A DNA stretch of 63,972 bases, filler included, from Basidioascus undulatus (GCA_000826855.1; 9 parts of 9 records of this genome joined end to end with filler, not necessarily neighbours in it); one strand, 5' to 3'; counted from the first letter of the whole stretch, positions 4,422-62,959 are shown. Notes: generated by a model not told the origin, from the sequence alone. A program made the numbers and translations.

Positions 4422-7400
4422 ATGGTCAACACTCCTACCCGCCCACCGCCGTTCACGCCCAAGCGCGCACCCGCCGCAACAGCGACCGCATCAACATCAA
4501 CGACCAGCATGCCACCCTCAACGACCACGACATCCGCATCCACCCGCCGAGTATCAGGCATTCCTGCCCCGCTCCATCCATCAAACTCGCTCCTCCACCC
4601 GCCCGCATCCGCCTCCCGCGCCGCCCCCTCCCGCTCCGCATCGCCCCTCCCCGGAAACACCGAGAACCACGCGTTCAAGGTGCCTGCGCTCCCAAAGCAC
4701 GCCGCGGAGACGCCCATAGTCCTGCGCGCCAAAGTGAGCGAGGAGAGCAGGGTCCGCAGGAAGGGCGGGCTCGTCGGCGCGCAGAGGGCGGAGAGGCCAC
4801 CGCCGTTGGGAGCGCTCGGGGCGAGCAGGAGCCCCGCGGCGGCGGTGAGGACGGAGACGGTGCCGGTGCAGGAGGAGGCGTACGACTTCGGTGGGGACGC
4901 GCCGACGTGGGAGGAGGAGGACGAGCTCCCCAAGGCGACGGACGAGAACGTCCTCGTCTCCATCCGGTGCGTCTCCCCTTCCCTACCCGTGGCCACACCA
5001 TCTTTCCCCAACGCCCCGCTCACAACCCACCCCCCAGACTCCGCCCAACCAAGGACCTCCCCGCCTGGGCCGCCTCATCCTCGACCGTCCAGCTCGCCTC
5101 CTCTCACGCAACGCGCTCTACCCACTCCCAAGAATGGCGGTTCGATCAAGTCCTGAGTGAGGGCGGGAACGCCGATGTGTATCGCCAGGCGGCGAGGGGA
5201 CATGTCCGGTGCGCAGTCGTCCCTTTCATCCCATGACGTTAGGGCGAGCTGATCGATGGGATGGAGGAATCAGGAGCGCGATGGACGGGCTGAACGCTGT
5301 CATCTTCGCGTATGGCCAGACGGCCTCCGGAAAGACGCATACGCTTGTACGTGTCTTCCCCCCAATCCCCTATCATCACGCCTTCGCTGATTCACGAGTG
5401 CGCAGTCCGGAACGCCCAAAGAGCCGGGTGTCATTCCCCGCGCAGTGGACGACGTGTTCGAGTATATCAAGAAGGTGCGTGTGTCTTGGCCGTCTGTTTC
5501 ATTTCCGTTGTGATGATGCTCATGCTGTTGGACGACGCAGAACCCCTCGCGAGAGTTCTTGCTGCGGGTAGCTTACGTGCGTCTCCCTCCCCACCCGTTT
5601 CTTCCCTTCCTGGCGGGTGCTGACCCACCACCTGCTTTTGCACACCAACAGGTCGAGATCTAGTCAGTCCTCCTCCCATCCACCCTCCCTGTCTCCCGCT
5701 CACTCCCTTCCTCCCATGCAGCAACGAGCAGATCCATGACCTGCTCTCCCCAACGCCCACCACTCTCGAGCTCCGCACCGCGCTCGACCCGCGCACGCGC
5801 AAGCCGCTCGTCGTCCTCACGCCGCTGCACGAGGAGGTGTGCACGTCACCCGAGGCGGTGCGCGAGCTCCTCCGCCGCGGGACGGAGCGGAGGCACACGT
5901 CTGAGACGGACTGGAACGCCCGCAGCTCGCGGAGCCATGTCGTTTTCCAGCTGGTGCGTTGCGCTCGTGTCGGCTTCGAGGATGGGATGGGGGATGGGCA
6001 CTCATGTCTGACTGGTTGGTGGGTGGGTGCCACAGACGATTGAGAGCTGCGACCGCGGGAGAGGGCCAGAGCGCGTCAACTCCCCCGCGCCGTGTGCCGT
6101 CCCGCAGACGCAGGGCGGGATTCGCCTGCGCGGGAACGCGGTGCGGACGTCGACGCTGGTAAGTCCTTCTACCTCCGCACTCCCATCCTTCGCGACAGAC
6201 GCTCATCTGCAACGGTGGGGACGGCAGAGCCTGATCGACCTCGCCGGCTCGGAGAAGGCGACGAGCCAGGTCGAGCGCCGGCTCGAGGGTGCCAACATCA
6301 ACAAGAGCTTGTTGACGCTTGGCATGGTCATTCAGAAGCTGGTGGAGTCTGGCAGGAAGGGCGGGAAGAGGTGCGTGGGCTTCTTCAGTCGTGGACTGGC
6401 TAGGGAAGATGCGGGTCCTGAAACGATTTGGGGTACACAGCGGGCACGTCCCGTACCGCGACTCGAAGGTACGCTGTCTAGCATTTCGTTCCCAACGCCG
6501 TTAAGCTGACATATGCTGGACGGGTACCTCCAGCTCACACGCCTGCTCGAGCCCTCCCTCTCCGGCAACGCGCGCGTTAGCGTGATCTGCACGCTAAACC
6601 CGTCGCATTCGCAGATCGACGAGTCCGTCTCGACGCTGCAGTTCGCCTCGCGCGTGAAGAAGGTCGAGCTCCGCGCCGAGCGCGGCGAGGTTGTCGACGC
6701 CGGCGCGCTCCTCGAGGTGTACAAGCGCGAGATCGAGAACCTGCGCAGGGCGCTGCGGGAGAAGGAGGACGGCGGGGGCAAGGCTGATGAGGGCAAGGGG
6801 CCGGGGAGGGGGGGGAGGAAGAGGACGGAGGAGGAGGACGCGCTGGAGGGGCTGAGGGGTCGGATCGAGCAGCTTACGAAGCTTATTTTGCACTCGAGCT
6901 CGGTGGACGAGCAGGCGAACCAGGTGCGTGGCCGTGCCTTTACCTGTCCTGCCTCTGCTTTCTCCTGATGTCCCGTATTCCTATTCCCGCAGGTCAACGG
7001 CCGGCCCGTCTCGCCCTCGAAGGCACGCGCCTCCCTGCCCGTCTCCTACCTCCCCTCTGCGTTTCCTCCCCCAACTCCTACGCTCCCGCCCTCCGAAGAG
7101 CTGTTCCACCTGCGTCGCTCCAATGCCGACCTCCGCGCGCGGATCAGCGAGCTGGAAGCGGCCGTGCCGTCGCTCCCCGCGGACGCGCCCGAGTCGGACA
7201 AGGACCGGCGCATCCGCGAGCTCGAGATGGAGAACCGCGGGCTCAAGATCGTCGTTAAGGAGCTGGAGGAGATGAAGGTTGGCGAGGCGCTCAGGGAGAC
7301 GAGGGAGGACGTTGAGAGGGAGTGGAAGGCCGGCGTGGATGCGCTCAGGAGGGAGCTCGAGGATAAGAAGGCTTGGGCGCAGGAACTGCTTAAGGGGCTG

Positions 7401-7890
7401 GAGAAGGAGAAGCGGGTGTGTAACATAGTTCCAGGCCTCTCAACCGCATTGCTGCTGAAGGCTCACTTCATGTTCCGTTGCCTACCAGGTCAACCGCGAC
7501 CTCCAGCTCCTCGCACTGTCCAACATGAACCAGCTCCTGACCCCCTCCGCCCCGCGCACCTCCGCCTCCCGGACCGCCGCCGCGGCGCACTTCCCCACCT
7601 CCCCCACGCGCCGGCGCTCCTACTCCATCTCCTCGCCCGACGCGTCCCTGCCCTCCGCCCCGCGCGCCATGAGCCTCACCGCCGAGACGCCCGACCCGGC
7701 GACCTGGCGCCCGCGGCAGTCCGTCTGGGGCGCCGACGAAGACGACGCGCGAGCCGAGAGCGAGGCGTGGGACAGCCCGAGAAGGCCGGGGAGGAGGGAG
7801 AGCGCCGCGGGCGACTTGATGGGGTTCGATGATGTCGTTGAGGGGTGGATGGGCGCGGAGAAAGCGCGGATGCCGAAGGTTGAAGAGTGA
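4422..7890 (+). CDS. Kinesin-7 family motor (Kip2/KipA/CENP-E-like), multi-exon
   Basis: ENVLVSIR, IFAYGQTASGKTHT (P-loop), NARSSRSH (switch I), LIDLAGSEKA (switch II), [41 protein letters not shown]. It has a Pro/Ser-rich N-terminus, a coiled-coil tail and GT-AG introns. Confidence 0.9.
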
Positions 7891-20371: not shown

Positions 20372-22921
20372 ATGAGCTCATCGTCCGAGGAGACCTCAAC
20401 GCCCGCGGCGTCCTCCGCGCCCACCTCGCCTCCCCTCTCGAACCTCTCGATCAAGTCCGAGACGGATGGGCCGCAGTCGCTGGGGGATGTGACGGACGAG
20501 GCCAAGGCGGAGGCGGAGAAGCTGAAGGCGGAGGCGAACAAGGTCTTTGCAGGTGCGCTTCTGGCATTTGCTCTGGACGCGCAGGGGCGAGTGCAGGCTG
20601 AGCGGGAAGGGCAAGGCGACAGAGCACGACTACTTGAAAGCCGCCACGCTTTACTCCGCTGCAATCGACAAAAACGCTTTCAACCACATTCTCTTCGCCA
20701 ACCGGGCTATGGTAGGTGGGAGCCATAGCGCTCCATCTCCCCTTACTGACGCTGCTTGTGTTTCTGCGGACAGGCGAGAATACGTCTCGAGGAGCACGGT
20801 CTCGCCATTGCTGATGCCTGTGAGTCAAGCCTGTTGTCACTTACGGAAGGGGCCCTTTGTGGTCTAATCGGGAATGCTTGGCAGCTCGGTCTATCGAGCT
20901 CAACGACAAGTACGCGAAGGCGTACTTCCGGAGAGCGTCCGCGTACCTCGCCATTCTGAACGCTTCCGCTGCGATTGCGGACTTCAAAAAGGCGCTTGCG
21001 CTCGAGCCGAACAATAAACAGACTCGGGCTCAGCTTGATGCCACGACCAAGCTTCATCGGCGGTCCGTCGATCTCCTCCATTGCGTACGGATTGGGTATG
21101 AGCCTGACAGTCGGACTGCAGGATCCAGTTCGAGAAGGCCATTGCTGCGGATGAGGAGGAGCTGGCGTCGGATAAGGTCCGGAAGCTGATAGCCGACGGC
21201 GCTGGCGACATCGAGGCGAGCTACGAGGGGCCCCGGCTCGAGACGGACCCGGAGACGGGCAAGTTCAAGCCGACCGAGGCCTTCGTTGACGAGATGATCG
21301 ACCACTTCAAGGCTGGCAAGGCGCTGCACAAGCGCGTAGCGTGGGAGATCGTGCTCGGCACGCGCGAGGTTCTCGTCAACGAGCCCAGCTTGGTGGAGGC
21401 GGTTGTGGAAGACGGGTGCACGCTCGACGTGATCGGTGACACGCACGGTGCGTGTCTTCACCTTTTGAGCGCTGCAGGCCCAGTTGGCTAACAGAAAGGG
21501 TTCAGGCCAATTCTACGACCTCCTCAACCTTGTCGAGAAGACGGGCCGGCCGTGTCCCACGCACGCTCTGCTTTGTACGTACCCTCAACGTCGCTGTGTC
21601 GATTCTGCAGCTGACAACTTCGACTACAGTCAATGGCGACTTTGTTGACCGGGGGAGCTGGTCAACTGAAGTATGAATTTTTCCTCTCAGCGTTGGCCTA
21701 CTCGGTACTCATCGCTTCTTCCTCAGGTTGTCCTGCTTCTCTTCTTATGGAAGTGGCTGTACCCGAACCGCGTCTTCCTCAACCGCGGCAACCACGAGAC
21801 CAACGACATGAACAAGTGCGACCCTCCAGGCGTTCAGGTGCCCATGGCCTTCGGACTGATCTTGTAAACACGGTACAGGGTCTACGGCTTCGAGGGGGAG
21901 GTAAAGCACAAATACTCCGACTTGAGTAGGTCTCCGCTTCACCCGCGTGCAGCGCTGTACTAATGGTCGACCGCCCTGCCCAGCCTTCAAGCTCTTCTCC
22001 GACGTCTTCACCACCCTTCCCATTGCCACCCTCGTCTCTCCCACTCTCCCCCCTACCTCTACCACCCCGAACGACTTCCTCTCTCCCGAAGGCCGAAAGC
22101 GTTACTTCGTCGTCCACGGCGGCCTGTTCTCCAAGGACGGCGTCACGCTCGACGATATCCGCGCTGTGAAGCGTTTCGGCCGTCAGCCGGGCCAGGAGGG
22201 CATCATGTGTGCGTTGCTGTTGTGCAGGACTGGACCGCGATAAGATTCAGCTGACTCGCGCCTTTCCGCTCAGGCGAAGCTCTGTGGACCGATCCTCAGG
22301 AGTCGAACGGGCGGGGACCGAGCAAGCGGGTGCGTCGTTATGATCGGGAATAAGCGCGGTCGTCCTCGAAGCTCATCCACCATCATAGGGCGTCGGCGTC
22401 GGCTTCGGTCCGGACGTCACGCGAGACTGGTGCAAGCTGAACAGCGTAACGGCGGTCTTGCGCAGCCACGAGGTTCGGCAAGAAGGGTGCGTGACGTATT
22501 CCTGACCCCTTAAGTCACGGAATGCTGATGCACAGCCGATGAACAGCTACGCTGTCGAGCACGATGGCCGGTGCATTACCGTCTTCAGGTACGGCACGCT
22601 GGCATGCACCCCGCCAAATCATCGTTCACCTTACCAACTCTCACAGTGCCCCGAACTACGTCGACTCTACCGGGAACAAGGGCGCCTTCGTGAGTGGCAT
22701 CTCGTGTCAATCTCGCCCTGGTAGATGCTGATGCACGGACGGCAACAGGTTCGCATCGACGCAGACGGTACTCTGCATTACAACCAGTTCGAAGCTGTGC
22801 GTTTTCTGCAGCCCCTGCGATGGGCGGCTTTGCCCTTTGCTCAAGCGGAATCCCATAGGTGCCTCATCCTCCGATTCGGCCCATGGCGTACTCTTCCGGG
22901 TTCTCCGGCCTCATGGGATGA
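20372..22921 (+). CDS. PPT1: Serine/threonine protein phosphatase 5 (TPR + PPP domain), multi-exon
   Basis: TPR region ([37 protein letters not shown]), then [41 protein letters not shown], and the PP5 C-terminus [15 protein letters not shown]. Confidence 0.95.
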
Positions 22922-23478: not shown

Positions 23479-24925
23479 TCAATCCAACTTCTTCCAACCC
23501 CTCCTCCCGCCCAAGCCCGCCGCCGACCCCCCAGCACCCGCGGCGTCCCACCTGCGCGCGCCCGCGCCCTCCTCCATCTCGTCCAGCCCCGCGGCGCCCC
23601 TCCCGCGCGACGAGCCCGTCCGCTCGGGCGTGAGCGCCTTGCCGAGCGCAGTCGTCAGCGCGTGGGCCGGGAGCAGGAGGTGCAGCCTTGTTGCTGCGCC
23701 TGAGGGGGGCTCGAGCGGGAGGGGGTGCGCATGGGTGGCGAGGAGGAGGTACTGCGTTTCGCGAGAGGGGGGATAGTTAGTGAGGGACAGCAAAGAGAAA
23801 GGAGAGGGTGAAGGGGGTGGGTGGATGGAGATGCACGAGCGGAAAAAGCCCGGCAAAGATGACTACCCCGCCCGCAAGGCCGCCTGCCCAGGATGGGCCC
23901 CACGAGAGGAGCGTGACGGGCGCGCCGAAGCCGGTGGCCCACGCCCAGCGCTCCTCGAGGAAGCGCAGGCGCTGCGTGAGCGTGAATCGGTGCGCCGCGA
24001 GGGGCGGATCGAAGAGGTAGAATCTGTGCAGGGCGGTGGAGGGAGGCGTGTGAGGATGGGGAGGGGCTGGGAAGGTGGGGAGGTGGGAAGGTGGGAAGGT
24101 GGGAAGGTGGGAAGGTGGGAAGGTGGGAAGGGGACGCACGAGGAGATGAATGAGAGGTAGAGGAATGTGAGGGGGGTACGGAGGAGGGGGATCGAGGAGA
24201 GAAGGAAGGAGAACGGCAGGTAGGCAAGGAGGAGGAGCGGGCGATAGGAGGTCTCGAGGAGGAGGGGAAGGAGACTGCGTCGTTCCCACATCACCTGCAT
24301 TAGCTTTCCTGCTCCCTCCTCCCAACAGTTAAAGCAAACAGAGTCGTACCCAACATGGCTCTTACTCGGTATCGGCCTGGCATAAAAGACCTCAAACGCC
24401 CTGAGCAAGACGACCCTCGAGGACAGCCCGGAGAAGAGGACCGCGAACCCAGTGGTGGACCACACCCACCCCAGGGTCCACAGCGAGGGGAGGAGGTGCG
24501 TCTCCCACTGCGCGCGGGTGGGCACGAGGGAGGCGGTGGCGTCGTGCCAGATGAGGATGAGGAGGAGGAGGGCGCTGAGGGCGAGGGGTCGGAGGACTGC
24601 CAAAAGGAAGGGGGTCAGCTACGGGGAGCCGAGTGAAGAAGCGGGAAAGAGACGCACTGTTATCCCTGATCTTCGCATCCCGCCCCAGCGCATCAATCGT
24701 GATCCCAACCCGCAGCGCCGCCTTGAGCCCGTCCAGCGCGAGCCTCGCATGATACCCCACAGCGGCGGGCACGTCTGCCGGCGCGTCGAAGCCGCTGCTG
24801 CTCGTCGCTGATGCCGCCCAGTATGATTCCGGGGGGAGGAGCGGCAGGGGTGGGGCCGCGCTGGATATGGATGTGCGTCGGCGGTAGTGTGCCGAGCGGG
24901 AGGAGGGCGAGGGCGAGTGGAGCAT
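23479..24925 (-). CDS. EI24-like multi-pass membrane protein, multi-exon
   Basis: Several hydrophobic helices, with TLTQRLRFLEERWAWATGFGAP and IFAGLFP..YLLLATHAHPLP, matching the EI24-family pattern as I recall it. Confidence 0.7.
24068..24131 (+). repeat. Tandem repeat (TGGGAAGG)x8 inside an EI24 intron
   Basis: Eight 8-nt units read directly, one of them the variant TGGGGAGG. Confidence 0.9.
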
Positions 24926-39558: not shown

Positions 39559-40305
39559 TCAGTAACCCGCAGCAGCGGGCCTGCCCAACGCACGCGCATC
39601 AGTACTGGGGGCACGCAACGGATGATTTGAAGAGGGAAAGAAGGGAGAAGGAAGGACTCACGCCCGCTCGCCCTGGCGCTTGAGGCTGAGGAGAACCTCC
39701 TTGAACCGGGGCACGTCCTTCCGTCCCATCGTCTTGGACTGTGAGTTTTCGAGCTCGACGAGATCGCAAATCCCTGTGAAGGGGAGGGAGGGATGAGTGG
39801 AATGGTGGGATGAGGGAGGGAGGGATGGAGGGAGGGGAGGGACGCACGCTCCCACGTCGTTCCCGACGCCAACGCATCCGTCCGCTTGGCTTGGAACTCG
39901 GCCTCCTCCTCCCTGCAGCACTCCAAACACGTAAGTATGTCTCCCTCAAAAGCACACACCCCTGTGGTCTTCTCGAACCCAGGAACGAACCGTCGACTCA
40001 CTTGTTCTTCGCGATGTTCGCCGCCTTGCGCTCATTGTACTCGGTGTAAAAATCGTCGATCGCCTTCTCAGCCTTCAGGACCGTCTCCTCCTTCTTCTTC
40101 TCGCTCTCCGCATCGCGCTCGGCGATCTCCGCCGCGCGCCGCTCGCGCCACGCGCGCACGGGCTCGGGCTCGGGGTCCGTCGGCAGGCGCGCGCAGAAGA
40201 GCGGCGGCTGGTGCGGCGCCGCGGGGGTAGTGGAGGTGAAGGAGGATTGTTGGGGGAATTTAATATCCAGCCTGCGAGTCTGGACAAGGTGGGAGAATGT
40301 GCAAT
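39559..40305 (-). CDS. CLC1: Clathrin light chain; 5' end cut by contig edge
   Basis: EPEPVRAWRERRAAEIAERDAESEKKKEETVLKAEKAIDDFYTEYN, GTTWER/ICDLVELENSQSKT, RFKEVLLSLKRQGERAPAAAGY*. Confidence 0.9.
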
Positions 40306-45268: not shown

Positions 45269-46664
45269 CGCCACGATGCAGTTCATCTCCGCCCAGCCGG
45301 CGCGTGCTCCCGGCGCTCCTCTCCGTTCTCCTCCCCCTCCCCCTCCCCCTCCTCCTCCTCCTCTTCCTCCTCCTCCCCCTCCTCCAGCAGCGCGTCCTCC
45401 TCCTCATCCAGGCTGTCCTCCCTCAGTCCACCCTGCACCGCGCGCGCACCCTCCGCCCTGGCAGGGGCCTCCGCGGGAGGGGAAGAAATAGAGGGCTTGG
45501 GCTTCCGCGCCTTGTCCTCCCCGGAGAGGACGACGTCCCCATCCGGCGTCACTTGCGTTGCGCCCCGCGCGAGGTTCCGCGTTTCGTAGAAACGGTAGAT
45601 CTCGGCCACTGCGGGGCGGCGCGGGAGGAGGAGCAGGTAATCGCGGAAGTCGGTGAACTGCTCGTAGGTGTCAGCCTGAGGGGAAGGTGCTGGGGGGAGG
45701 AGGTGGAAGAGGAAAACCTCGATGTGCCCCGACTTGTCCTGGTCGAGGGACGTGAAGAACTGCTCGAAGGCAGCTTCGGATGGGCGGATGCCTGGTGAAC
45801 CCTCATCAGCTCGGGGTTCCCTCTGCATTTTGGGAAGAAAAATAAACATACCAGCCCGCTCCAGCGCAGCTTTCAGCTCGTCCCTATCCAGACGCATGTC
45901 CTGGTTCTTATCCAGCTCCTGGTAGACCTCTGATCTCGCGCGCTTCCCTCCGTCAGCCTTCTCATCCACCTTCCCCCCGTCAAGAAGAACAAGCACGTAC
46001 GCCACAGCTCGCGCTCCTTCTCCTCGGCGTACGAGCAAAAGTCCCTCCACGTTACGCCGACGCGCTCCGTGCCCTCCTCCAACATATGGTGGTGGTGCTG
46101 CTGATCCAGCCTCTCCTGCCCCTCCTCGGGCGCTCCGCGCGGGCCCATCCCAGGCCCGACGCACTGTTTGACTAGCTCGCCCGCATAGTCCGGGGGCGCG
46201 GCAGGCGGGGGCGCGGGCGGGTGATCTGACCTTGCCGTGGCTGCGGAGGCAGGGCGGCGGTGATTCTCGCGCGTGGGCAGCCCCTCCCATACGCGCCGGA
46301 GCCGCTCGCGCCGGGCTTTCGCGCCCTCGCGGCGGCGGACGTCAGCGAGGTTGTGTGGGCGCGCGGGAGCGAGGGACCGGTGCGGATCGTCGGAACCGCG
46401 GAGGTTGGGGTCCACCCAGCTGTCGGTGCCGTGCGTCCCCGCGCCCCAGCCGCCACGCCACGCGCCCGAGAGCGTGCCGTGGAAGCGGTCGATGGCGGAG
46501 ATGGTCTGGCTCGTTTCGGGCGAGGAGGACGGGAAGGGCGGGGGCGGGATCTGGTAGATGTATACTGGCGGGGATGGAGAGGATGGCGGCGGGGATGAGG
46601 AGGATGAGGGCGCGGGTGGATGGGATGAAGGATTTGATGGTGGTTTTGGATCGGATGAAGACAT
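45269..46664 (-). CDS. SAL1: Ca2+-binding mitochondrial ATP-Mg/Pi carrier (SAL1/SCaMC), N-terminal EF-hand half; carrier domain beyond contig edge
   Basis: VTWRDFCSYAEEKERELW, EF-hands ELDKNQDMRLDRDEL and SLDQDKSGHIEFTDFRDYLLLLP, then EIYRFY..VTPDGDV. Confidence 0.85.
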
Positions 46665-50130: not shown

Positions 50131-51788
50131 AGGAGCGGGTTGAGGGCGGCGGCGGCGTTCACCTGATGAAGGAGCTTGATAATTGAGATGACTTTTGAAG
50201 GAGCGGAGGGAAGACAGAGCAGAAGACGCACCAGTAGGCGTCCCATCAATCGCTGAGTGCTCGCCCATCATCCCCGCCCTCGCCGCTACCCCTCTTCCTC
50301 CTTCTCCTCCCTCCTTGTCCTCCCAAACGATAAACTGCACCGGCTTGTCCATCCATCGGTTACCGACCTCCTGCGCGCGCTCGCCCGCGTGCCAGAGGTG
50401 CCTGCTCCGTCCGGCGGGCGTCGGCGTCGGGGAGGACGCGTCGAGCGAGAGAGTGAAGGCGGCGGACTCGAGGGCGTGGAGGGCGGGCGCGTTGGGGGGG
50501 GAGGAGAGGAGGCGGGCGCGATCCTATCGCCCAAATCCATACCCATGCCATATGAATTAGCTGTGACTCGTCACTTAGAAGGTAGGAAGGAAACCGCCTA
50601 CCGCAGCCCATGAATCCCGATCTTGCGCCGTGAGCGCCCCCACCCCCGCCTCGTCCTCGCGTCCCTCCGCCCCACGCAGGATCTCCTCCAGCGCACCCTC
50701 GATCTCCTCTGTCTCCAGCACGTCCCCCCCATCCGGCTCCCCGCCGTGCGTGGCGGGGAGGGCCCACCACAGCCCCTTGTGCGCGACGGCGACGTGCACG
50801 GGCGACGTGGAGGATGGCGAGCGGTGCACGGCGACGTAGTCCGCTGGGGAGGTGGAGGGGATGCGGGAGGCGTCGAACATGAACCTGTGCGGTTGAACAA
50901 GCATAATCAGGCGCGTTCAGTGGATGAAGTATGAAGTAGCAGTGTGAAGCAGGATAAGGAGAGGGAAAGAAAACGAACCGGTACGAGTCCATGCAAATCG
51001 GCTGCTTCGCCTTCCCGACCGTATCAGGCTGGAGCTCCCCGCGGAGCATCGCGCGGCGGAAAAGGAGCGCAGAGCGGACTATCTGCGCCGCGTAGCGCGC
51101 GACGGAGAGCTTCTCCTTGGGCGGGTAGAACCCATAGAAGTAGGATACGTTGATGACGACCGAGTCGCGGTAGGCCATGTCTGTCGGCCCCCCCCCCCTT
51201 CATCAGTCCCCCATCCCACTCCCAAGAAACTAGAGAGCAAGGAAGAAAAACTCACAAGCCCCATCATCCCACCACTCCTCCAACCAACTGCTCCTCCCCT
51301 CCCCATCCCTCCTCTCCACAAGCCTAGCCTGCAACCGCTCGCCCAGCCCGCCCGGCTTCCCGAACTCAGACACCTTGCGTTCGAGCTCCGACAGCTCGGC
51401 GTCGGAGCGTGCAAGTGCGCCGGCGGAGCGTAGGAGGCGGTCGAGCGTTTGGGGGAGCGGCGGGACGGGGAGGTGGGGCAGGAGGCGGTCGGAGGCGGTG
51501 AAGGGCGAGGTGGGGGAGAGGGACGCGGGGGGTCCGAGGGCCTTCCATGAGGGAGGGCGAGCGGTGGGCGCTGGGCGCGTTGAGTTGATGGTCAGAACGG
51601 GAGGAAGAAGGAAGTACTGGATTCGGATGGAGGTGGATGGGAGGGGCACACGCACCCGGCTGGCCAGGCTGCAGCGTTGCCATGTTCCGTTGCACTATCG
51701 CGAGAGGTCGCAGGTTCGCAGATGCAGATGAGCGGGCGAGAGCGCGCTGTGTGTTGGTGGTGATGGGAATGCGAAGACGAGGGAGCAT
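50131..51788 (-). CDS. CAT2: Carnitine O-acetyltransferase; 3' end cut by contig edge
   Basis: LPHLPVPPLPQTL, WLEEWWDDGAYMAYRDSVVINVSYF, PICMDSYRFMFDASRIP, GVGALTAQDRDSWA, NRWMDKPVQFIV, GEHSAIDG (catalytic His), plus an Arg/Ser-rich presequence. Confidence 0.9.
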
Positions 51789-54988: not shown

Positions 54989-56692
54989 GCGAGGGGCGGG
55001 CGGGGGACTGTGTGGTGGTGATGGGGAATGAGGGCGGAGGTAAGTTGTCGTTCTGTCCTTCTGCAAGCAAAAGGGTCTTGAGCTGACGGAGGTGGTATGG
55101 TAGACCTCGACTCGATGACCTCTGCCCTCACCTGGGCGTACCACGTCGCGCACGTCCGCCCGCCGACCAAGGCCGTCGCGCTCCTCCAGACGCCGAAGGA
55201 CGCGCTCGACCTCCGGCCAGAGAACCAGCTCGCTTTGAAGAACGCCGGGATGGCGGTGGGGCATAAGGACCTGCTCAGTGCGTTTGTCCTATGTGGAAGG
55301 ACGGGAGGGCAGGCGAACTGACGGGGTCGGGGCGGGTTGAGCAGCGATTGACGAGCTCCCGGAGCCTGCGCCCGAGCTCGCACCCAAGCTGAAGGGCATC
55401 GCGCTGGTGGACCACAATGTGCCACTGACGAACTGGACCTCGGGCAAGACGTGTGTTCCTCCTCTCTCCTCCATCTTTTCACCCTCCCTCGCTTACACTC
55501 CCCCCTCCATTCCACAGCCTCTCCATAATCGACCACCACCACGACCGGCACCTCGCGCCGGACGCGTCTCCGCGCGTCCTCTCCCCGGTAGCATCCTGCT
55601 CTACGCTCGTCGCGCGCGAGGTCCTGCGCGAGCGCCGCGCGGGGAAGCCCGTCCACGGGGCCGACCTCCCCGTCGAGCTCGTGGACATGCTCCTCAGCGT
55701 CATTGCGCTCGACTCGGGCGGGCTGGGCAAGGGCACGGAGATCGATAAGGAGGTCGCGAGGGAGCTGCTTGGACTGAGCACGTGGAAGGGGGAGAGGCTG
55801 TTCAAGGTGCGTTGGGTTTGTGTGAGGGAGCGAGCCGGATCACAGGGGCTGAGAGAGGGGGTGGGACAGGTCATGGATGATCTGGACGACGAGATGAGCA
55901 AGGCGAAGAAGGACCTCGGGCACTTGACCGTGCGGGACCTTCTCCGTCGTGACTACAAGGGCGACATGTTCGTCCCCTATTTCCCGTCCCCCTCTCCCTT
56001 CTTCTCACTCCCCTTTATTTACCCCCCTCACCCGCTTCCCCACCTCCAGCGTGGACACCGTCTCGCCCAACACGCCCTCCCTGTACCTCGGCATCGCTTC
56101 TGTCCCGCTCTCCCTGTCGCAGCAAATCGAGCGCACGCCGAACGTGACGCTCGCGGGCTGGATCGCGATCGAGCGCGCGTGGACGGCGGAGATCACGGCG
56201 GACGTGTCGCTCGCGCTCACTTCGTTCCGACATCCCAAGGTCCGATTCTCCCTCCTTCTCCCCTTTTCCCTCTCCCCTTTTCCCTCTCCCCACTTTCTCC
56301 TCTCCCCCTCTCCCCTTCGCACAGGATTTTGACTGTTTGCGATGGGGCGGAAACAGACGGGTATCAAGACCCGCGAAATCACGCTCGTCGTGCGGTCCGA
56401 CGGCCGGCTAAACCTAGAGCAAGCGAACTCGCTCTTTGCGCGGCTGGTGAAGGGGATCGAGGACTCGGACGAGCTGGACGTGAACCCGTGGGAGGACGGG
56501 TCGCTCGAGGGCATCAGCGCGAGGAGGATGGTGTGGACCCAGCACCGGAGGGACGCGGGGAGGAAGGTGGTCAGACCGTGAGTAGATCGAGAAAGGGGGG
56601 GAGGAGAGGGAGAACGCAAGGGGAACTGACGGTGTGCTGGGCTGGCTGGGGCGGGCAGAGTCGTCGAGAACATCGTCATGGGGTGGAGCTGA
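54989..56692 (+). CDS. PPX1: Exopolyphosphatase, DHH/prune family; 5' end cut by contig edge
   Basis: VVMGNEGG/DLDS, LRPEN, LVDHN, IIDHH, ASCSTLV, IALDS, LRRDYK, RKVVRP. Confidence 0.9.
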
Positions 56693-57494: not shown

Positions 57495-59643
57495 TTAGGC
57501 GCGGCGCTGGCGGGTCGGCTCGAGACTGATGCCCTCGCCGATGCGGCGACCGAGTTCCGAGTCGACCTGGACAGATCATATTGATGAGCGACCTGGGAAA
57601 ATAACCATGGTTTCCCCCCATAAAGTTGAACACGTACGCGAGCAAACATGTTGAGAGACCGCTGCTTCACCCCGTCAACGGTCACGGAGTTCAGCGCCTT
57701 GACGATGTTCGCAATCAGCGCCTCGCGCTCGTCGTCCTGGAACTCCTGCTCGGCATAGGGAGACATTGAGCATGGTGCACCTAAAGGAAATAAAGCCCAA
57801 CCCTGACCTTGTTGAAGAGGTCCCGGGGCTGCTCAAAGTCAAGGTCCTCAATCTCGTACGACGAAAGGACGAGCGGCGGGCCCGTGGGAGGGTCCGCGAT
57901 GGCGGAAAGGTTGTACGGACGCGCAGGGTAGGAGACAACCGGACTGTGAAAAGATCGCCTGTTCAGTTCAGCGCGTTTCTTAGACTTCGAAGAGGAGACG
58001 TGCGCGTAGGACGAAGGGTAGTTCTGCGCGTGAGGCGGGAGGGTGCCCGCGCCGCCGTCGACCCTCATCCAGCCCCCGCCTGGACCGCATCGTCAGATGG
58101 TGTCACAAGAAAAGGACGTTGGGAACTCACGCTGATAGTTCTGGACCATGAAGGGGCAGTTGACCGGGATCTGAAGGTGGTTCGGGCCCAGACGGTGCCT
58201 CGCAGTGTCCGAGTACGAGAACAGACGGGACTGCAGGACCGGGTCGTTCGAGGGCTCGATCTGTGGGTACGAGCGCAGCGATCAGCACAAAGTTTAAGGC
58301 TGCCAAAGTCTGCATATTGGTACTGACACCAGGGACCATATGGGCAGGCGAGAAGGCGACTGCGAAAGGTTCGTCAGGTCACGAGTGCGCACGATAAATT
58401 ATGGGAAAGGCGGTTACCCTGCTCGATTTCTGTATTGATCGGAGAACTTGTCAGCGCGGTTGGGGAAATCATACAGTAGCGACATCACAGACCCGAGAAC
58501 CAGTTGTCGGGGTTCTTGTCCAGAACGATCTTGCCGATCTCGCGGAGGGGGTACTGCCGAACTAGTGGATTAGCTGGAACTGATAGGGTATCTTGAAGTT
58601 GTTAATGTACCTGGTCCTCGGGCCAAATCTTCGTGAGGTCATTCTGACAGTCGTGCAGCCAAACGTGTCAGACCTGTAGTCTTGGAGCTTCTATGACCAG
58701 ACGTACCACATCGTAGCGGAACTCCTGGGCCTGTTCCGGGGTCATGGTCTGGATTGCCACCTTCCAAGTCGGAAGGTTGCCGGACTCAATGCGATCGCTA
58801 ATGGCCAGGGAGGTCAGCTGATCATTCGTGTGTATCAACGAGTACTCACTGCAGGTCCTCAGTCAGGAAGTCCGGGTTGCTACCGGCGAGGGACTGCGCC
58901 TCCTCGGCAGAGAGGTTCTCCAGGCCCTGCTGCGAGATGACCTTGACCTGCACGTAGTAGAACGTGCCGTCCGCCTTGACCCACTTGTAGGTGTGCCCAC
59001 TCCATCCGTGCATCTGTACACCCACAATTTGAATCGAGGGGCTACATTTTATCTAGAAAAGAAACCAGGCTTACCTGGGTCCACGACCGGGGCGCTAAGG
59101 TGAAAAGACACAGCTTAGCGGAGGAAAACAAGCTGGCTCAACGGGCAGAAGACGCTTACTGCCGCGGTTGGAGAAGAGAAGCATCACCTATAGTTCGAAT
59201 CAGTACAGTTTGGTGATTTGCTTTTTACTTCAAGTGTGGACGCCCACCTGATACACGCTCTCGGGATTTCTGGGCGAAGTGGGCAGGTGAGCAAGGGAAG
59301 GAATGATGGCCTGACTTTACAGCTCACTGAGACCAGTAGTCCCTGAAGGCTCAACATCGTCAGCGCTCACTGATGAGATGGCATCTATGGAGGTGAATGG
59401 ACAAACCACTGCACAGTAGGCGAGCGCAGGTTCGTCTTCGGGTCCCCTGCAACACTTAGTACCGTCAGCCCCTCTTCTAAATACTCAATATTCATATTGG
59501 CGGACTCTTTTGAGAATGAATAAAGAGGGGGAACTTGGTGGGGTCCCTCAGGAAGAACACCTGTTGGCAGGAACATGAGGTATGAGCTTCAGACACGGCC
59601 GAAAGCAAGAATCAGCAAAAACGTAAAGGAGTGTTATTGAACA
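57495..59643 (-). CDS. Small-subunit heme catalase, about 18 visible exons; N-terminus beyond contig edge
   Basis: [100 protein letters not shown] (proximal Tyr motif). Confidence 0.9.
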
Positions 59644-59846: not shown

Positions 59847-62307
59847 CTCTTCACCGAAGCCTTCGACACGCCCTCTCACCCTGCCCCCCTCGCACCAACC
59901 TCCCCCTCCGGGCTCTTCCTCCACTCCGACCTCCGCACCCCCGCCGACTTCGGGCCCCTCGTCGAGCGCACCCTCCGCTCCTCGCGCCTCCTCGTCGACC
60001 GCATCTGCGCCGCGCCCGAGCGCGGGATCGACGAGCTCAGAAAGGTCGTCAAGAACTTAGATCGGCTCAGCGACGGGCTGTGCAGGGTAATTGATCTGGC
60101 GGAGCTGGTGCGGAACGTCCACCCCAATCAGGCGTGGGTCCAGGCGGCGGACGAAACGTACGAGGCACTGTGCAGCTATATGAACGAGCTGAACACGCAT
60201 GTGGGGCTGTACAACGTGCGCTCCACCTTCACATCCTTCCTCGACCCGTCTCCATCTCACCCTACCCCTGCAGGTTCTCTCCCACACGCTCTCCCACCCC
60301 GCGCTCTCGCTCGACTACTCCTCCCGCCAAGTCGCGCTCGTCTTCCTGAACGACTTCGAGAAGTCCGGGATCCACCTCCCCACCTCCTCCCGGCGGGCCT
60401 TCGTCTCCCTCTCAGACGAGATCATCTCACTGGGCCGGCGCTTCCTGACCTCAGCGGCCACGCCCTCGCCCGCGCGGGACGTCCTCTTGGACGCGTCCGA
60501 CCTCTCCGGGCACTCGCGCGAGTTCCTCACGGGCCTTCCCCCGCCCGAGGGGCGCACGGGCAAGCGCCGCGTGAGCGCGCAGAGCTGGGAGGCGCAGATG
60601 CTGCTGCGCTACTCGCCCAGAGAGGAGACGAGGCGGAAGATCTACGTCGCTGCGAACTCGGCGAGTGAGGACGAGGTCCAGACGCTCGAGGAGCTCTTGA
60701 GTGCGCGGAATCGGATGGCTAGGCTTGTCGGAAAGGAGAGCTACGCGGAGGTCGCGCTTGGGGATAAAATGGCTAAGACCCCTGGTGCGTCGTCTTCCCC
60801 TCCCCAATCTTCCCTCGCATGCCCCACTCACACCCCACCCTCAGAAAACGTCGCGATTTTCCTCTCCTCCCTCTCCTCCGTGCACCGCCCCCTCGCAGTT
60901 CGGGACATCGACTCCCTCTCTCGCTCCGCGCAATCCGCGCTGTCGCTCCCCACCCCGCCGCCCGTCCCCGCCTGGTCGCGGGACTACTACGCGCACCTCT
61001 CCACGCCGCACTCATCCCTCCCTCCGCTACACGAGTATTTCTCCCTCGGCACCGTCCTCTCTGGCCTCTCGCACATCTTTGACGCGCTCTACGGCGTGTC
61101 GCTCCACCCCGTGCCCCTCCGGGCGGGGGAGGCGTGGGACGCGGGCGTGCGGAAGCTCGAGGTGCGGGACGAGGCGGAGGGAGTAATTGGCACTGTCTAC
61201 GCGGACTTGTGGGCGCGGCATCCCAAGGGCGCCGGGGCCGCGCATTACACGGTTACGTGCTCCAGGAGAGTGGATGATGATGATCCGTGGGAGGGGGAGG
61301 AGGACTCTCGGGGCACCGGCGTGCAGGTCAGGGGGCGCGAGGGCGCGCACCAGCTGCCAGTTGTGGTCCTTGCGTGCGGGTTCGATGAGCCGAGCGTCGG
61401 GTGCCCGACCCTTCTTGCGTGGGGAGAGGTCGAGACGATCTTCCATGAGATGGGGCACGCGATCCATTGTGCGTCTTCCCTTCACCTTCCTCTTCCCTCT
61501 CTCGGTACTCATCCCCCTCTCCATCTCCAGCCATGCTCGGCCGCACGCCCTTCCAAAACGTCTCCGGCACGCGCTGCCCAACCGACTTCGTCGAGCTCCC
61601 CTCCATCCTCATGGAACACCTGCTCTCCTCCCCCGCGCTCCTGCCGCTCATCTCCTCGCACCACGTGACCGGCGCGCCGCTCCCGCCGGCGCTGCTCGAC
61701 GCGCACATGCGGAACCACAACGCGCTGCCCGCGCTCGAGACCCAGGGCCAGCTACTCATGGCCAAGCTCGACCAGGCGTACCACACGCGGGACGTGGATC
61801 GGCAGGGCAAGGAGGGCGGGGGGTGGTCGACTAGGGTTTGGTATGATTTGCAGGATACGGTGGGCGTTGTGGGAAGCGTGCAGCGGACGGCGTGGCAAAC
61901 TCAGTTCGGGCACTTGTTGTGCGTCCTGCCTTTTCCCTGTTCCTTTTCTTCCCACGATCTTCACGCTCTACCCCGCCATCTTCCCCGCTTTGCTGACAAC
62001 GAACCGGGCGGGGACTCCCAGCGGTTACGGCGCGACCTACTACTCCTACCTGTTCGACAGGTCGATCGCCTCGCGCGTGTACTCGCACCTCTTCTCGCGC
62101 GACCCGCTCAGTCGCGACGCAGGCGAGCGCTTCAAGCGCGACGTCTTGCGCTGGGGCGGCGGGCGCGACCCGTGGGCGATGCTCGGGGGGCTGCTCGACT
62201 CGCCCGAGACGCGCGAGGAGGCGGAGGTGGTGGGCAAGGGCGAGAGGGAGGCGATGGAGAGAGTTGGGCAGTGGGGCACGGGAGAGGTGGGGGTCGTACC
62301 GAAGTAG
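59847..62307 (+). CDS. OCT1: Mitochondrial intermediate peptidase (M3 family); 5' end cut by contig edge
   Basis: [57 protein letters not shown] (HEXXH), [37 protein letters not shown]. Confidence 0.95.
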
Positions 62308-62959
62308 ACGGGTGGGAGTACGGATATGTTGCCCGATTCATCATCATTGCCCACGGACCTGCACCCGGGCCGGCGCGTTTGGGCAGCTCGCCATCGTATC
62401 ACGGTTGAAACGCTAGCGGATGGAAATGCAGCGAGGTCGGATTGCTAGAACTAGCCTCCAAGCCGGATACCACCGCAAGCAAATTCTCAGCTTTTTGGCA
62501 TTCTATTTGCTCGTGAGAGCCCTTCAAGCATCGCTGTGCGCCTTTCATTGTGACGATGAGCGTGGGCGTCTGGCGACTGCAGCCTGTCAACCTTCCTCCG
62601 ATTTTTGACATGTGTTCGAGGAGCGCCAAACTCTTGACTATGCATGCTTTGTCGCGGTACAAACCAATTTGGAAGCTGAATGGAGCATCATTTCATAAGC
62701 CAAACAGTGAATTATCAGCTCACGCGGGACGCATAGCCGTTTTCCTTTGTTGTACGTTGTACACCGCAGCCTTGAGCCGAGCCGCTTATTGATTTTATGC
62801 CTGAAATTTCTAAGGGAGCTGAAGCTGAACTTCTCTTTCCTGCAGTGGCAGCCTCCTCAACATACGCAATAATGCCACCGTACGTTGGCACCCACTGTCG
62901 CACTTCTCTTTGCGGCTGTAGTACGTTGATCTTCCCGTAAACCTCGTTGAAATCTGCTG

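What the first reader, a model, noticed from the sequence alone, without database searches (positions are those of the whole stretch)
59847..62330. Oscillating C-rich / G-rich blocks running through genes regardless of strand or exon structure
Seen by eye in OCT1 on the + strand: C/T-rich about 60230-60545, G/A-rich 60560-60780, C 60790-61110, G 61120-61460, C 61470-61760, G 61790-61910, C 61920-62110, G 62150-62320. The period is roughly 450-700 bp. The switches occur within single exons and appear to affect synonymous codons (CTC/TCC/CCC versus CTG/GCG/GGG) as well as introns. The same wave is visible in the kinesin, EI24/IAH1, SAL1, CAT2, MT, MFS and PPX1 genes on either strand, but is weak in PP5, catalase and the decayed zones. 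Ordinary transcription- or replication-linked skew keeps one sign along a gene, so it does not explain a repeated sign flip. Inference: a periodic strand-asymmetric mutation/repair or chromatin process, or selection for fold-back, R-loop or G4/triplex structures. Many contig ends fall in these tracts, which may explain the fragmented assembly.
Basis: partly seen in the sequence, partly recalled or inferred. Interest (0 to 1): 0.7.

Follow-up and report, generated by a model that had tools for sequence, protein, structure and literature searches.

The report
Exon-locked C-to-G skew wave
In this fungus each exon starts rich in C and ends rich in G, so the strand composition flips at every splice junction and near every exon midpoint, strongly enough to reshape codon choice and protein composition.

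Summary
The wave is real. Each of the five OCT1 exons beats all 300 codon shuffles.

It is not independent of exon structure, and it has no fixed period.
- Every G-to-C flip in OCT1 sits on a 5' splice site. Every C-to-G flip sits inside an exon.
- The "period" is simply exon plus intron length (427-686 nt).
- Across the window, 39 of 41 predicted exons of 150 nt or more run C-rich to G-rich on the sense strand, on both strands. The switch lies at a median 0.48 of exon length.
- The shift appears at 4-fold sites (skew -0.33 to +0.10). It also drags amino-acid composition.
- Introns are nearly all-pyrimidine or nearly all-purine.

OCT1 genes of other basidiomycete-like fungi, taken from metagenomes, show the same rule at third codon positions. 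The step follows intron presence or absence.

Most likely this is an extreme, exon-wide form of splicing-coupled strand asymmetry that keeps the pre-mRNA locally unpaired. That mechanism is inferred. An intron-anchored mutation bias is not excluded. Eight literature searches found no description of it.

The parts
59847..60215 (+). OCT1 exon A. It is cut at the contig start. C-rich to about 60017, G-rich from about 60018.
   Evidence: Frame and model. Step statistic 4.71, switch at +171 nt, 0 of 300 shuffles reach it.
60216..60273 (+). OCT1 intron 1, C-type (nearly all pyrimidine). The G-to-C flip sits at its donor.
   Evidence: Runs from a GTGCGC donor to a CAG acceptor. Interior skew -0.79. 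An intron at this position is shared by 12 metagenome loci.
60274..60784 (+). OCT1 exon B. C-rich 60274-60546, G-rich 60547-60784.
   Evidence: Pfam Peptidase_M3 profile positions 2-67 end at this exon's end. Switch at +273 nt, 0 of 300 shuffles.
60785..60844 (+). OCT1 intron 2, C-type.
   Evidence: Skew -0.82. The Pfam profile continues 67|70 across it.
60845..61468 (+). OCT1 exon C. It ends in the zinc-binding HEMGHAIH motif. C-rich 60845-61120, G-rich 61121-61468. The switch is sharp.
   Evidence: Pfam profile 70-253. Switch at +276 nt, 0 of 300 shuffles. Sequence read.
61469..61530 (+). OCT1 intron 3, C-type.
   Evidence: Skew -0.87. Pfam profile 253|255. Shared by 15 basidiomycete-like loci.
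61531..61918 (+). OCT1 exon D. C-rich 61531-61788, G-rich 61789-61918.
   Evidence: Pfam profile 255-380. Switch at +258 nt, 0 of 300 shuffles. The G-block is specific to this lineage: amino-acid index +0.47 here against -0.02 and -0.13 in homologues.
61919..62021 (+). OCT1 intron 4, C-type. It was found in none of the 22 other loci that could be scored.
   Evidence: The Pfam profile continues 380|384.
62022..62307 (+). OCT1 last exon, with the stop codon at 62305-62307. C-rich or neutral at first, strongly G-rich from about 62130 to about 50 nt past the stop.
4508..7890 (+). Kinesin gene. Its long exons (4508-4966, 5038-5208, 5722-5953, 6534-6923, 6993-7415, 7489-7890) each run C-rich to G-rich.
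   Evidence: Pfam Kinesin hits per exon. Steps tested. The gene finder fused an upstream gene to this model.
23479..24925 (-). EI24-like gene. All 4 of its exons of 150 nt or more run C-rich to G-rich on the sense (-) strand.
45283..46550 (-). EF-hand (SAL1-like) gene. Its two long exons run C-rich to G-rich.
50341..51570 (-). Carnitine acyltransferase (CAT2-like) gene. All four exons run C-rich to G-rich.
   Evidence: Pfam profile continuity 1-67|71-137|140-229|232-289. Steps. Third-position skew is +0.53 upstream and -0.52 downstream of its introns.
55097..56692 (+). PPX1-like (DHH/DHHA2) gene. It alternates C-type and G-type introns. G-to-C flips occur at the donors of the C-type introns.
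39658..40305 (-). Clathrin light chain gene, cut at the contig end. Its 304-nt exon runs C-rich to G-rich.
20372..22921 (+). PP5 gene. It is intact, with 16 mostly short exons. The wave is weak but has the same sign at third positions.
   Evidence: third-position skew -0.02 upstream and -0.25 downstream of introns.
57495..59013 (-). Catalase gene, with short exons. No wave at all sites. These are the only two exons with an opposite best step.

Best explanation
WHAT IT IS (shown).
- Protein-coding exons longer than about 150 nt in this GC-rich basidiomycete are two-domain units on the sense strand. The 5' domain is C- and pyrimidine-rich. The 3' domain is G- and purine-rich.
- The C-to-G switch lies near the exon midpoint.
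- The G-to-C switch coincides with a splice junction to within about 10 nt. It falls at the donor when the intron is nearly all pyrimidine (C-type) and at the acceptor when the intron is nearly all purine (G-type).
- The apparent wavelength is exon plus intron length.
- The force acts at all three codon positions, including 4-fold sites, and has shifted amino-acid usage. P, S, T, L, H and F are commoner in 5' halves. G, E, K, D and W are commoner in 3' halves.
- Because a C-block followed by a G-block is its own reverse complement, the wave looks the same for genes on either strand.

HOW IT MOST LIKELY WORKS (inferred).
- It is an extreme, exon-wide form of splicing-coupled strand asymmetry, produced by selection on the pre-mRNA.
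- In a genome with about 85% GC at third positions, mixed G+C sequence folds strongly.
- Segregating C and G into separate domains, and making introns all-Y or all-R, leaves the nascent RNA locally unpaired around splice sites and marks exon starts and exon ends differently for a machinery that defines short introns.
- Neighbouring sites reinforce one another. This gives square-wave domains rather than gradients.
For: Phase lock to exons.
- OCT1 exon junctions are verified by Pfam profile continuity: 2-67|70-253|255-380|384-444. All 4 G-to-C flips sit at donors.
- 39 of 41 predicted exons of 150 nt or more have their best step in the C-to-G direction (sign test p = 8e-10). In 25 of them the step passed p < 0.01 against 300 within-exon codon shuffles.
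- An unsupervised scan found 17 of 22 sharp genic G-to-C flips within 30 nt of a predicted intron, against 3 of 20 C-to-G flips (p = 6.5e-5).
- At 10-nt resolution, skew goes from about +0.1 in the exon to -0.80 at the donors of 14 C-type introns. At the acceptors of 4 G-type introns it goes from +0.5 in the intron to -0.2 in the exon.

Not explained by amino acids.
- 4-fold-site skew is -0.33 in first halves and +0.10 in second halves of exons.
- The exon half still predicts G versus C at 4-fold sites after controlling for local position-1+2 skew.

Comparative evidence.
- In 29 metagenome OCT1 loci, at four intron positions, where an intron is present the all-site step is positive in 38 of 41 cases and the third-position step in 35 of 41. 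Where the intron is absent the counts are 11 of 60 and 19 of 60 (Mann-Whitney p = 2.5e-13 and 4.5e-10).
- The lineage-specific intron 4 has a step of +0.47 here. The same site averages -0.44 in 11 basidiomycete-like loci that lack the intron.
- Third-position skew rises from first to second half in 30 of 32 exons of those loci. It rises in 14 of 34 equivalent intervals of intronless loci.

RNA-level consequence.
- Local 50-nt folding is weaker than in nulls with synonymous codons permuted, in 4 of 4 genes (z = 1.9 to 5.9). It is also weaker near junctions (z = 1.8 to 3.1).
- Whole-exon folding energy is unchanged.
- Introns are free of coding constraint and reach the most extreme skew, -0.8 to -1.0 or +0.35 to +0.66. 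Of 36 introns, 21 are C-type, 9 are G-type and 6 are neutral.
- The flip lies on the junction itself, at either end of the intron, rather than inside the intron. That fits a determinant defined by what is exon in the RNA.
Against: - No RNA data exist for this organism, so exon models rest on my own gene finder plus Pfam continuity. Some models are fused or imperfect.
- Selection has not been shown. Weaker local folding follows automatically from skewed composition, whatever its cause.
- The exon end upstream of a C-type intron is G-rich. This creates, rather than avoids, pairing potential across the donor.
- In L001 and L002 a G-to-C step persists at the intron-2 position although that intron is absent (third-position step +0.26 and +0.73). 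A present intron is therefore not strictly required.
- Intronless OCT1 genes in other fungi (L015, L026, L030) also carry strong skew blocks, with a different phase.
- The effect reaches 250-300 nt from splice sites and changes protein composition. That is far for a splicing signal.
- Synonymous sites in the conserved PP5 and catalase genes show only a weak effect.
- The comparative evidence comes from one gene, and the loci are phylogenetically related.
Confidence: 0.42

Rival explanations
1. An intron-anchored, strand-asymmetric mutation or repair bias, with no selection. One version: the non-template strand is exposed in co-transcriptional R-loops whose extent is reset by spliceosome assembly. 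Another version: single-stranded 3' tails are exposed after breaks in nucleosome-poor purine/pyrimidine introns and gene ends. Whichever strand is exposed loses C and gains T. The result is G(+T)-rich DNA on one side of the anchor and C(+A)-rich DNA on the other.
For: - The pattern is reverse-complement symmetric.
- It affects 4-fold sites and introns, and introns are the most extreme.
- At 4-fold sites the A:T ratio shifts with the blocks in the deamination-like direction: 98:103 in C halves against 58:137 in G halves (p = 1.4e-4). The shift goes towards T in 7 of 8 codon families.
- The polarity expected for break resection, G-rich to the left of the break and C-rich to the right, matches a break in the intron. 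This is my own derivation. Strand-coordinated mutation clusters that flip at breaks in yeast are recalled from Roberts et al. 2012, which I did not read here.
- High GC content and strong skew occur together within the window.
- The step persists at a lost-intron site in L001 and L002.
Against: - The flip lies on the splice junction to within about 10 nt, at the donor or the acceptor, and not inside the intron. Introns are uniformly of one type. A DNA-level process has no reason to respect RNA-processing boundaries.
- In OCT1 the skew forms plateaus with sharp mid-exon switches rather than gradients decaying with distance.
- Deamination would lower GC content, yet the wave regions are the most GC-rich.
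- In introns G goes with A and C goes with T. That is purine versus pyrimidine, not the keto/amino pattern seen at 4-fold sites.
- C-type introns outnumber G-type introns 21 to 9. This breaks the symmetry such a process predicts.
- Synonymous sites in PP5 and catalase are only weakly affected although those genes have many introns.
Confidence: 0.27
2. Selected fold-back structures. Each exon's C half pairs with its own G half, or the G half pairs across the intron with the next C half. Such RNA hairpins would serve exon definition, or would keep G-rich nascent RNA out of R-loops.
For: - The switch lies near the exon midpoint, which gives equal arms: median 0.48, and switch offset against exon length has slope 0.63 with r = 0.87 over 28 exons.
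- In the predicted structures of 8 exons, 53-84% of base pairs join the two halves.
- At 4-fold sites the composition is C+A against G+T, which is complementary.
Against: - There is no sequence-specific complementarity. The folding energies of 8 exons lie within z = -2.7 to +1.1 of shuffles that preserve each half's composition, and 7 of 8 lie within |z| < 2.
- Folding energy is no lower than in whole-exon shuffles, and cross-half pairing is no more frequent than in the null.
- Exon-length duplex RNA would be an odd thing to select in mRNAs.
Confidence: 0.12
3. One reading: a periodic chromatin, replication or repair process with a wavelength of about 450-700 bp that ignores exon structure.
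For: The block sizes in OCT1 happen to be fairly regular.
Against: - Unit length follows exon length from about 170 to about 760 nt (r = 0.87).
- The flips sit on splice junctions.
- The step appears or is missing together with the intron across loci.
- Non-genic parts of the window, at about 50% GC, have little skew.
Confidence: 0.03
4. A by-product of protein composition and ordinary codon usage, or an assembly artefact.
For: - An amino-acid index of obligate skew correlates between this protein and distant homologues (r = 0.71 to 0.84).
- Even Mucoromycota show a weak pattern of the same sign in 4 of 5 exons.
Against: - Codon shuffles and 4-fold sites reject it.
- Introns take part.
- Where this protein differs from the homologue majority, the change goes in the block's direction in 10 of 10 blocks, though five of the ten shifts are under 0.1 in size.
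- Independent metagenome contigs from other organisms show the same wave.
Confidence: 0.03

Closest known systems
Splicing-coupled strand asymmetry (Touchon et al. 2004, Nucleic Acids Res; Zhang, Li, Krainer and Zhang 2008, PNAS). I saw both only as cited and summarised in the review PMC10030826 (passages). The Touchon paper is not held in the library.
   Same: - Nucleotide skews change sign at splice sites.
- Non-coding and synonymous positions are involved.
- The skews are absent from intronless genes.
- They are proposed to help tell exons from introns.
   Different: - There, exons carry one sign and introns the opposite sign (introns T>A and G>C in human and mouse), with modest amplitude. 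The review states that the trends do not carry over to yeast.
- Here the sign flips inside every exon.
- Introns come in two opposite classes.
- Amplitude reaches 0.4-0.9, and protein composition is reshaped.
Skews in amino-acid and codon usage at exon ends, attributed to exonic splicing enhancers (Warnecke, Parmley and Hurst 2008, PMC2374712; passages read).
   Same: - Amino-acid usage depends on distance from the exon-intron boundary in intron-rich species.
- The paper reports 26 such trends in the basidiomycete Cryptococcus neoformans.
- It finds no correlation between the 5'-end and 3'-end trends there (rho = 0.02). That fits ends of opposite composition.
   Different: - Those trends are measured close to the boundaries, are mostly symmetric in animals (purine-rich at both ends), and are treated as motif usage.
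- Here whole exon halves up to about 300 nt, 4-fold sites and introns form a strand-skew square wave.
- GC skew was not described there, as far as the passages I read show.
Selection for weak local pre-mRNA folding around fungal splice sites (Zafrir and Tuller 2015, PMC4574748; passages read).
   Same: Folding is weaker near the donor, the branch site and the acceptor than null models that keep the protein and the codon usage. One search shows the same here.
   Different: - That study covers ascomycetes only. 'Cryptococcus' and 'basidiomyc' each occur 0 times in its text.
- It attributes the effect partly to lower GC near the sites.
- It does not describe C/G segregation or polarity within exons.
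GC skew and R-loops at gene ends (Ginno et al. 2013), and protection from R-loops by introns (Bonnet et al. 2017). Both are recalled and were not read here.
   Same: - G-rich non-template DNA lies at gene 3' ends.
- Splicing, nascent RNA and strand-asymmetric DNA exposure are linked.
   Different: - Gene 5' ends here are C-rich on the sense strand, not G-rich.
- The sign alternates exon by exon.

Membership tests
Splicing-coupled strand asymmetry | The skew changes at splice junctions | tested here: met
   All 4 OCT1 donors. 17 of 22 sharp genic G-to-C flips lie within 30 nt of an intron. Confirmed at 10-nt resolution.
Splicing-coupled strand asymmetry | It is present at non-coding and synonymous positions, so it is not a protein effect | tested here: met
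   4-fold sites and introns.
Splicing-coupled strand asymmetry | It is absent where there is no intron | tested here: inconclusive
   The all-site step is positive in 38 of 41 sites with an intron and 11 of 60 without. However, L001 and L002 keep a step at a site that lacks the intron, and intronless loci have other skew blocks.
Splicing-coupled strand asymmetry | One sign throughout exons and the opposite sign throughout introns | tested here: not met
   The sign flips within 39 of 41 exons. Introns are 21 C-type, 9 G-type and 6 neutral out of 36.
Exon-end skews of the splicing-enhancer type | Amino-acid usage varies with distance from the exon boundary | tested here: met
   Between first and second exon halves, P goes 10.8 to 6.2%, S 11.7 to 6.1%, G 4.7 to 10.8% and E 4.0 to 9.7%.
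Exon-end skews of the splicing-enhancer type | The bias is similar (purine-rich) at both exon ends and confined to the ends | tested here: not met
   The two ends have opposite bias, and the bias extends to the exon midpoint.
Replication- or transcription-type GC skew | One sign along a whole transcription unit or replichore | tested here: not met
   The sign alternates 9 times within the 2.5 kb of OCT1.
Periodic or tandem sequence feature | A fixed wavelength independent of gene structure | tested here: not met
   Units in OCT1 measure 427, 571, 686 and 491 nt. The switch offset scales with exon length (r = 0.87).
Inverted-repeat or fold-back element | Sequence-specific complementarity between the arms | tested here: not met
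   8 exons give z = -2.7 to +1.1 against block-preserving shuffles.
Peptidase M3 / mitochondrial intermediate peptidase (the host gene) | An M3 domain containing the HExxH zinc motif | tested here: met
   Pfam PF01432 matches four exons with E = 3e-9 to 3e-37. HEMGHAIH lies at the end of exon C. The best homologues carry the source name mitochondrial intermediate peptidase.

The most novel reading that the evidence does not exclude
Exons in a large group of basidiomycete fungi, extreme here and visible in Tremellomycete-like and other OCT1 genes, carry a previously undescribed polarity code. Each exon has a pyrimidine/C-rich 5' domain and a purine/G-rich 3' domain, with all-pyrimidine or all-purine introns. 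The code is strong enough to override synonymous codon preference and to steer protein sequence evolution. It also leaves 'ghosts' at the sites of lost introns. If so, strand composition alone would reveal exon structure, intron gain and intron loss in these genomes. It would also point to a way of recognising exons, or of handling nascent RNA, that differs from both the yeast and the animal models.
Probability: 0.4. Interest if true: 0.8.

Novelty: new variant of a known kind. Interest (0 to 1): 0.68.

Why it matters
- A nucleotide-level force tied to splicing would be shaping both synonymous and non-synonymous evolution across whole exons. This is not limited to a few codons at exon ends. 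Part of the proteome's composition would then be a by-product of gene architecture.
- It gives a direct handle on an open question: how short-intron, intron-rich fungi tell exons from introns when their splice signals are weak.
- It has practical uses.
  - Gene finders for such genomes could use skew polarity to place splice sites.
  - Intron gain and loss could be read from the skew steps.
  - Codon-usage, selection and phylogenetic models that assume stationary composition within genes would be biased.
- The purine and pyrimidine tracts also appear to break short-read assemblies. Of 16 contig ends, 11 lie in such tracts.

Tried and rejected
- **Whole genome.** None is held for this window. 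All statistics therefore come from the 64-kb window and from fetched loci.
- **Naive intron candidates.** Requiring a GT..AG pair with open frames on both sides gave 599 candidates and was too noisy in this GC-rich DNA. I replaced it with a self-trained exon-chaining gene finder that uses no intron composition. Its first run chained neighbouring genes. The final run still fuses some genes (2503-7890 and 12663-17994) and missed PP5, which I modelled separately.
- **Averaging skew around every GTGCGT.** The 65 sites gave only a weak signal of the right sign, +0.06 to +0.10 upstream and -0.04 to -0.14 downstream. False sites dilute it, so I did not use it.
- **First scoring of intron presence or absence.** It mis-scored the intron-1 position because tblastn alignments overlapped and read through in-frame introns. 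My first impression that L001 and L002 had long intronless exons was wrong. I redid the scoring.
- **Fold-back test.** The first run timed out. The smaller rerun on 8 exons found no specific complementarity.
- **Cryptic splice-site avoidance.** I considered this as the reason for the blocks and dropped it, because the G-blocks are full of GT dinucleotides (sequence).
- **CpG avoidance.** I considered this as the link between third positions and their neighbours and dropped it, because CG is abundant in both block types.
- **GC content as the determinant across species.** Not supported. Loci with 56-59% GC (L008, L010) have low skew amplitude, 0.15-0.17.
- **RNA evidence.** No RNA holder is listed. 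The 3 listed runs hold the stretch as DNA, and two may be the source sample. I did not lay reads.
- **Earlier notes of this scan.** Nothing on this genome or under these words.
- **Literature.** Eight full-text searches found no description of an intra-exon flip of GC skew in fungi. Subscription journals are largely outside that library, so a prior description cannot be excluded.
Full report
**Setting**

The window is not one locus. It consists of nine contigs joined by artificial spacers, each made of 44 N, a 12-base stop-codon linker, and 44 N. The finding lies on the last contig (59847-63972). No whole genome is held, so everything below comes from the 64-kb window and from sequences fetched elsewhere.

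**The observation**

One further C-then-G unit lies at the contig start. AT skew follows GC skew (r = 0.58), so the blocks are pyrimidine-rich and purine-rich. The region has 60-75% GC. Composition falls to about 50% GC with no skew within roughly 100 nt after the stop codon.

**Gene structure of OCT1**

Reading the three frames and the GT..AG candidates gives five exons: 59847-60215, 60274-60784, 60845-61468, 61531-61918 and 62022-62307. The four introns are 58-103 nt long and begin with GTGCG[TC]. Pfam confirms the junctions. The Peptidase_M3 profile runs 2-67, 70-253, 255-380 and 384-444 across the last four exons.

The C-to-G flips lie inside exons, and in the sequence they are abrupt. The 450-700 bp 'period' is therefore exon plus intron length.

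**Is this general in the window?**

I wrote an exon-chaining gene finder trained on Pfam-supported ORF pieces. It uses codon usage and short splice-site matrices but no intron composition. Per-exon Pfam hits support many of its junctions in the CAT2-like, kinesin, catalase, clathrin light chain and DEAD-box genes. Some models are fused or incomplete.

- Of 50 predicted exons of 100 nt or more, 42 have a more positive skew in their second half, with means of -0.24 and +0.10.
- Of 41 exons of 150 nt or more, 39 have their best two-segment step in the C-to-G direction. Both exceptions are in catalase. In 25 exons the step passed p < 0.01 against 300 within-exon codon shuffles. The median switch lies at 0.48 of exon length.
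- The switch offset scales with exon length: slope 0.63, r = 0.87, over 28 exons.
- An unsupervised scan for sharp flips found 22 G-to-C flips inside predicted genes. Of these, 17 lie within 30 nt of a predicted intron, compared with 3 of 20 C-to-G flips (p = 6.5e-5).
- Genes on both strands behave alike. This is expected, because a C-block followed by a G-block is its own reverse complement.

**Introns**

Of 36 introns in seven genes, 21 are strongly C/T-rich, 9 are strongly G/A-rich and 6 are neutral. Both extreme classes carry CTRAC-like branch sites. The G-type introns have no pyrimidine tract.

At 10-nt resolution the flip sits on the donor for C-type introns. There the exon skew is about +0.1 and the intron skew is -0.80 from position +7. 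For G-type introns followed by long exons the flip sits on the acceptor, going from about +0.5 in the intron to about -0.2 in the exon.

The invariant is therefore the exon. It starts C-rich and ends G-rich whatever the type of the neighbouring intron. The first C-block begins about 100 nt upstream of the ATG, and the last G-block ends about 50 nt past the stop.

**Not an amino-acid effect, although amino acids are dragged along**

Between first and second halves of exons, GC skew changes as follows:

| Site class | First half | Second half |
|---|---|---|
| Codon position 1 | -0.11 | +0.27 |
| Codon position 2 | -0.43 | -0.02 |
| Codon position 3 | -0.33 | +0.17 |
| 4-fold sites | -0.33 | +0.10 |

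- P, S, T, L, H and F are commoner in first halves. G, E, K, D and W are commoner in second halves.
- In a logistic model of G versus C at 4-fold sites, both the exon half (+0.53 +- 0.11) and the local skew of positions 1+2 (+0.98 +- 0.15) matter. There is a positional effect and also a coupling between neighbouring sites.
- Third-position skew is higher upstream than downstream of introns in all 8 genes examined. The difference is small in the conserved, short-exon PP5 and catalase genes. PP5 is intact, with 16 exons.

**Relatives**

The closest OCT1 homologues are only about 52% identical. By the names their sources give, they are Wallemia, Ceratobasidium, Calocera and Tremellomycetes. The organism is therefore a basidiomycete without a close sequenced relative in that collection.

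I aligned 55 full-length homologues, those of 690-880 aa among the 120 listed. An amino-acid index of obligate G-minus-C content shows the same block pattern at an amplitude of 0.41-0.60 in 21 sequences. All 21 but one unnamed sequence are named as Tremellomycetes. The other 34 show 0.17-0.32, and this protein shows 0.60. Where this protein differs from the homologue majority, the change goes in the block's direction in 10 of 10 blocks, though five of the ten shifts are under 0.1 in size.

A scan of metagenome contigs returned 80 loci. I analysed the 30 best and dropped one that duplicates another.

- Two loci have a wave as strong as the one here: L001, and L002, which is 66-73% identical to a Cryptococcus protein.
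- Introns 1, 2 and 3 are old. They are shared by 12, 13 and 15 basidiomycete-like loci. Intron 4 was found in none of the 22 loci that could be scored.
- Over all loci and the four positions, the G-to-C step (150 nt upstream minus 150 nt downstream) is positive at 38 of 41 sites with an intron. At third positions it is positive at 35 of 41. At sites without an intron the counts are 11 of 60 and 19 of 60.
- At the intron-4 position, the 11 basidiomycete-like loci that lack the intron average -0.44. This genome, which has the intron, shows +0.47 at all sites, and at third positions +0.45 upstream against -0.40 downstream.
- Third-position skew rises from the first to the second half in 30 of 32 exons of the basidiomycete-like loci. 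It rises in 14 of 34 equivalent intervals in the intronless loci.

Results that cut the other way:

- L001 and L002 lack intron 2 yet keep a step there. L004 lacks it and has none.
- L001 has an extra G-to-C flip near residue 226. The alignments of three other loci begin there, which may mark a lost intron. I did not verify this.
- Intronless OCT1 genes of other fungi (L015, L026, L030) carry strong skew blocks that are unrelated in phase to the ones here.
- All of this comparative evidence comes from one gene, and the loci are not phylogenetically independent.

**Mechanism**

*Specific fold-back pairing is not supported.* Eight exons fold no better than shuffles that keep each half's composition (z = -2.7 to +1.1), and no better than whole-exon shuffles.

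*The arrangement does weaken local folding.* Mean 50-nt folding energy is less negative than in nulls that permute synonymous codons within the gene, in 4 of 4 genes (z = 1.9 to 5.9). The same holds near junctions (z = 1.8 to 3.1).

*Why I rank selection on the pre-mRNA first.* I call this an extreme, exon-wide form of splicing-coupled strand asymmetry and give it a confidence of about 0.4. Three observations favour it:
- the flip sits on the splice junction itself, at either end of the intron;
- the unconstrained introns saturate as all-pyrimidine or all-purine;
- C-type introns outnumber G-type introns.

The selection itself is inferred and has not been shown.

*Why a mutation bias remains a serious rival.* I give an intron-anchored strand-asymmetric mutation or repair bias about 0.27. 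At 4-fold sites the A:T ratio shifts with the blocks in a deamination-like direction, 98:103 against 58:137. Steps also persist at a lost-intron site. Against it stand the junction-sharp boundaries, the plateaus, the high GC content and the weak effect in PP5 and catalase.

**What is known**

Skews that change at splice sites, with opposite signs in exons and introns, are described for animals. The review that summarises them says they do not carry over to yeast (PMC10030826, passages). It cites Touchon 2004 and Zhang 2008, which I did not read.

Amino-acid skews at exon ends are described for many species. They include 26 trends in Cryptococcus neoformans, with no correlation between the 5' and 3' ends (PMC2374712, passages).

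Weak folding near splice sites is described for ascomycetes (PMC4574748, passages).

None of the passages I read, and none of eight full-text searches, describes an intra-exon sign flip, two opposite intron classes, or an amplitude that reshapes proteins. I therefore file this as a new variant of a known kind.

**Verdict**

The mechanism remains open.

Noticed in passing
window 25704-25803, 30574-30673, 35441-35540, 40306-40405, 45169-45268, 50031-50130, 54889-54988, 59747-59846: The window is a chain of nine separate contigs joined by artificial spacers (44 N, a 12-base linker with stops in all frames, 44 N). Adjacency of genes across these points means nothing.
   Followed up: yes
window 24024-24139 (- strand intron of the EI24-like gene): A 116-nt intron made largely of tandem copies of an 8-base C-rich unit, with skew -0.89. 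It suggests that slippage helps build the all-pyrimidine introns.
   Followed up: no
window 55278-55344, 55807-55869, 56578-56658, 45930-46000, 5954-6035: Introns that are G/A-rich throughout. They have a normal branch-site-like CTGAC but no pyrimidine tract between the branch site and the acceptor. That is unusual for spliceosomal introns.
   Followed up: partly
window 61919-62021: OCT1 intron 4 has no counterpart in any of the 22 other OCT1 loci that could be scored. It is probably a gain specific to this lineage, and it comes with a lineage-specific G-block upstream (61789-61918).
   Followed up: yes
window 54135-54888 (- strand, MFS-like): This predicted 754-nt exon contains an internal G-to-C flip near 54558. 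It may hide an unrecognised in-frame intron, or it may be a two-unit exon.
   Followed up: no
window 8200-12500, 18500-20300, 36200-38000, 40400-45000, 62400-63972: Long stretches at about 45-55% GC with almost no skew and no Pfam hits in ORFs of 105 aa or more. They contrast sharply with gene bodies at 60-75% GC. Their nature (intergenic DNA, or decayed elements) was not examined.
   Followed up: no
L030:4250-6700 and L015, L026 (metagenome loci): Intronless OCT1 genes of other fungi also carry C-then-G blocks of 250-800 bp. The blocks include the gene's 3' end and the downstream neighbour, and their phase is unrelated to the blocks in this window. Skew domains are therefore not confined to intron-rich genes.
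   Followed up: partly
L001:700-900 and L002:3980-4000: G-to-C flips lie inside long exons at the positions where other basidiomycete loci have introns (residue 293, and perhaps residue 226 in L001). These may be compositional ghosts of lost introns.
   Followed up: partly
window 12663-17994 (- strand): My gene finder fused at least three genes here: one with DEAD-box helicase motifs, one with a rhodanese domain, and a long exon of unknown family at 16840-17603. The models in this stretch are unreliable.
   Followed up: no
window 33377-34133 (+ strand): A small four-exon gene whose first exon gives a weak Pfam DUF4124 hit (E = 6e-5). Its identity is unclear.
   Followed up: no
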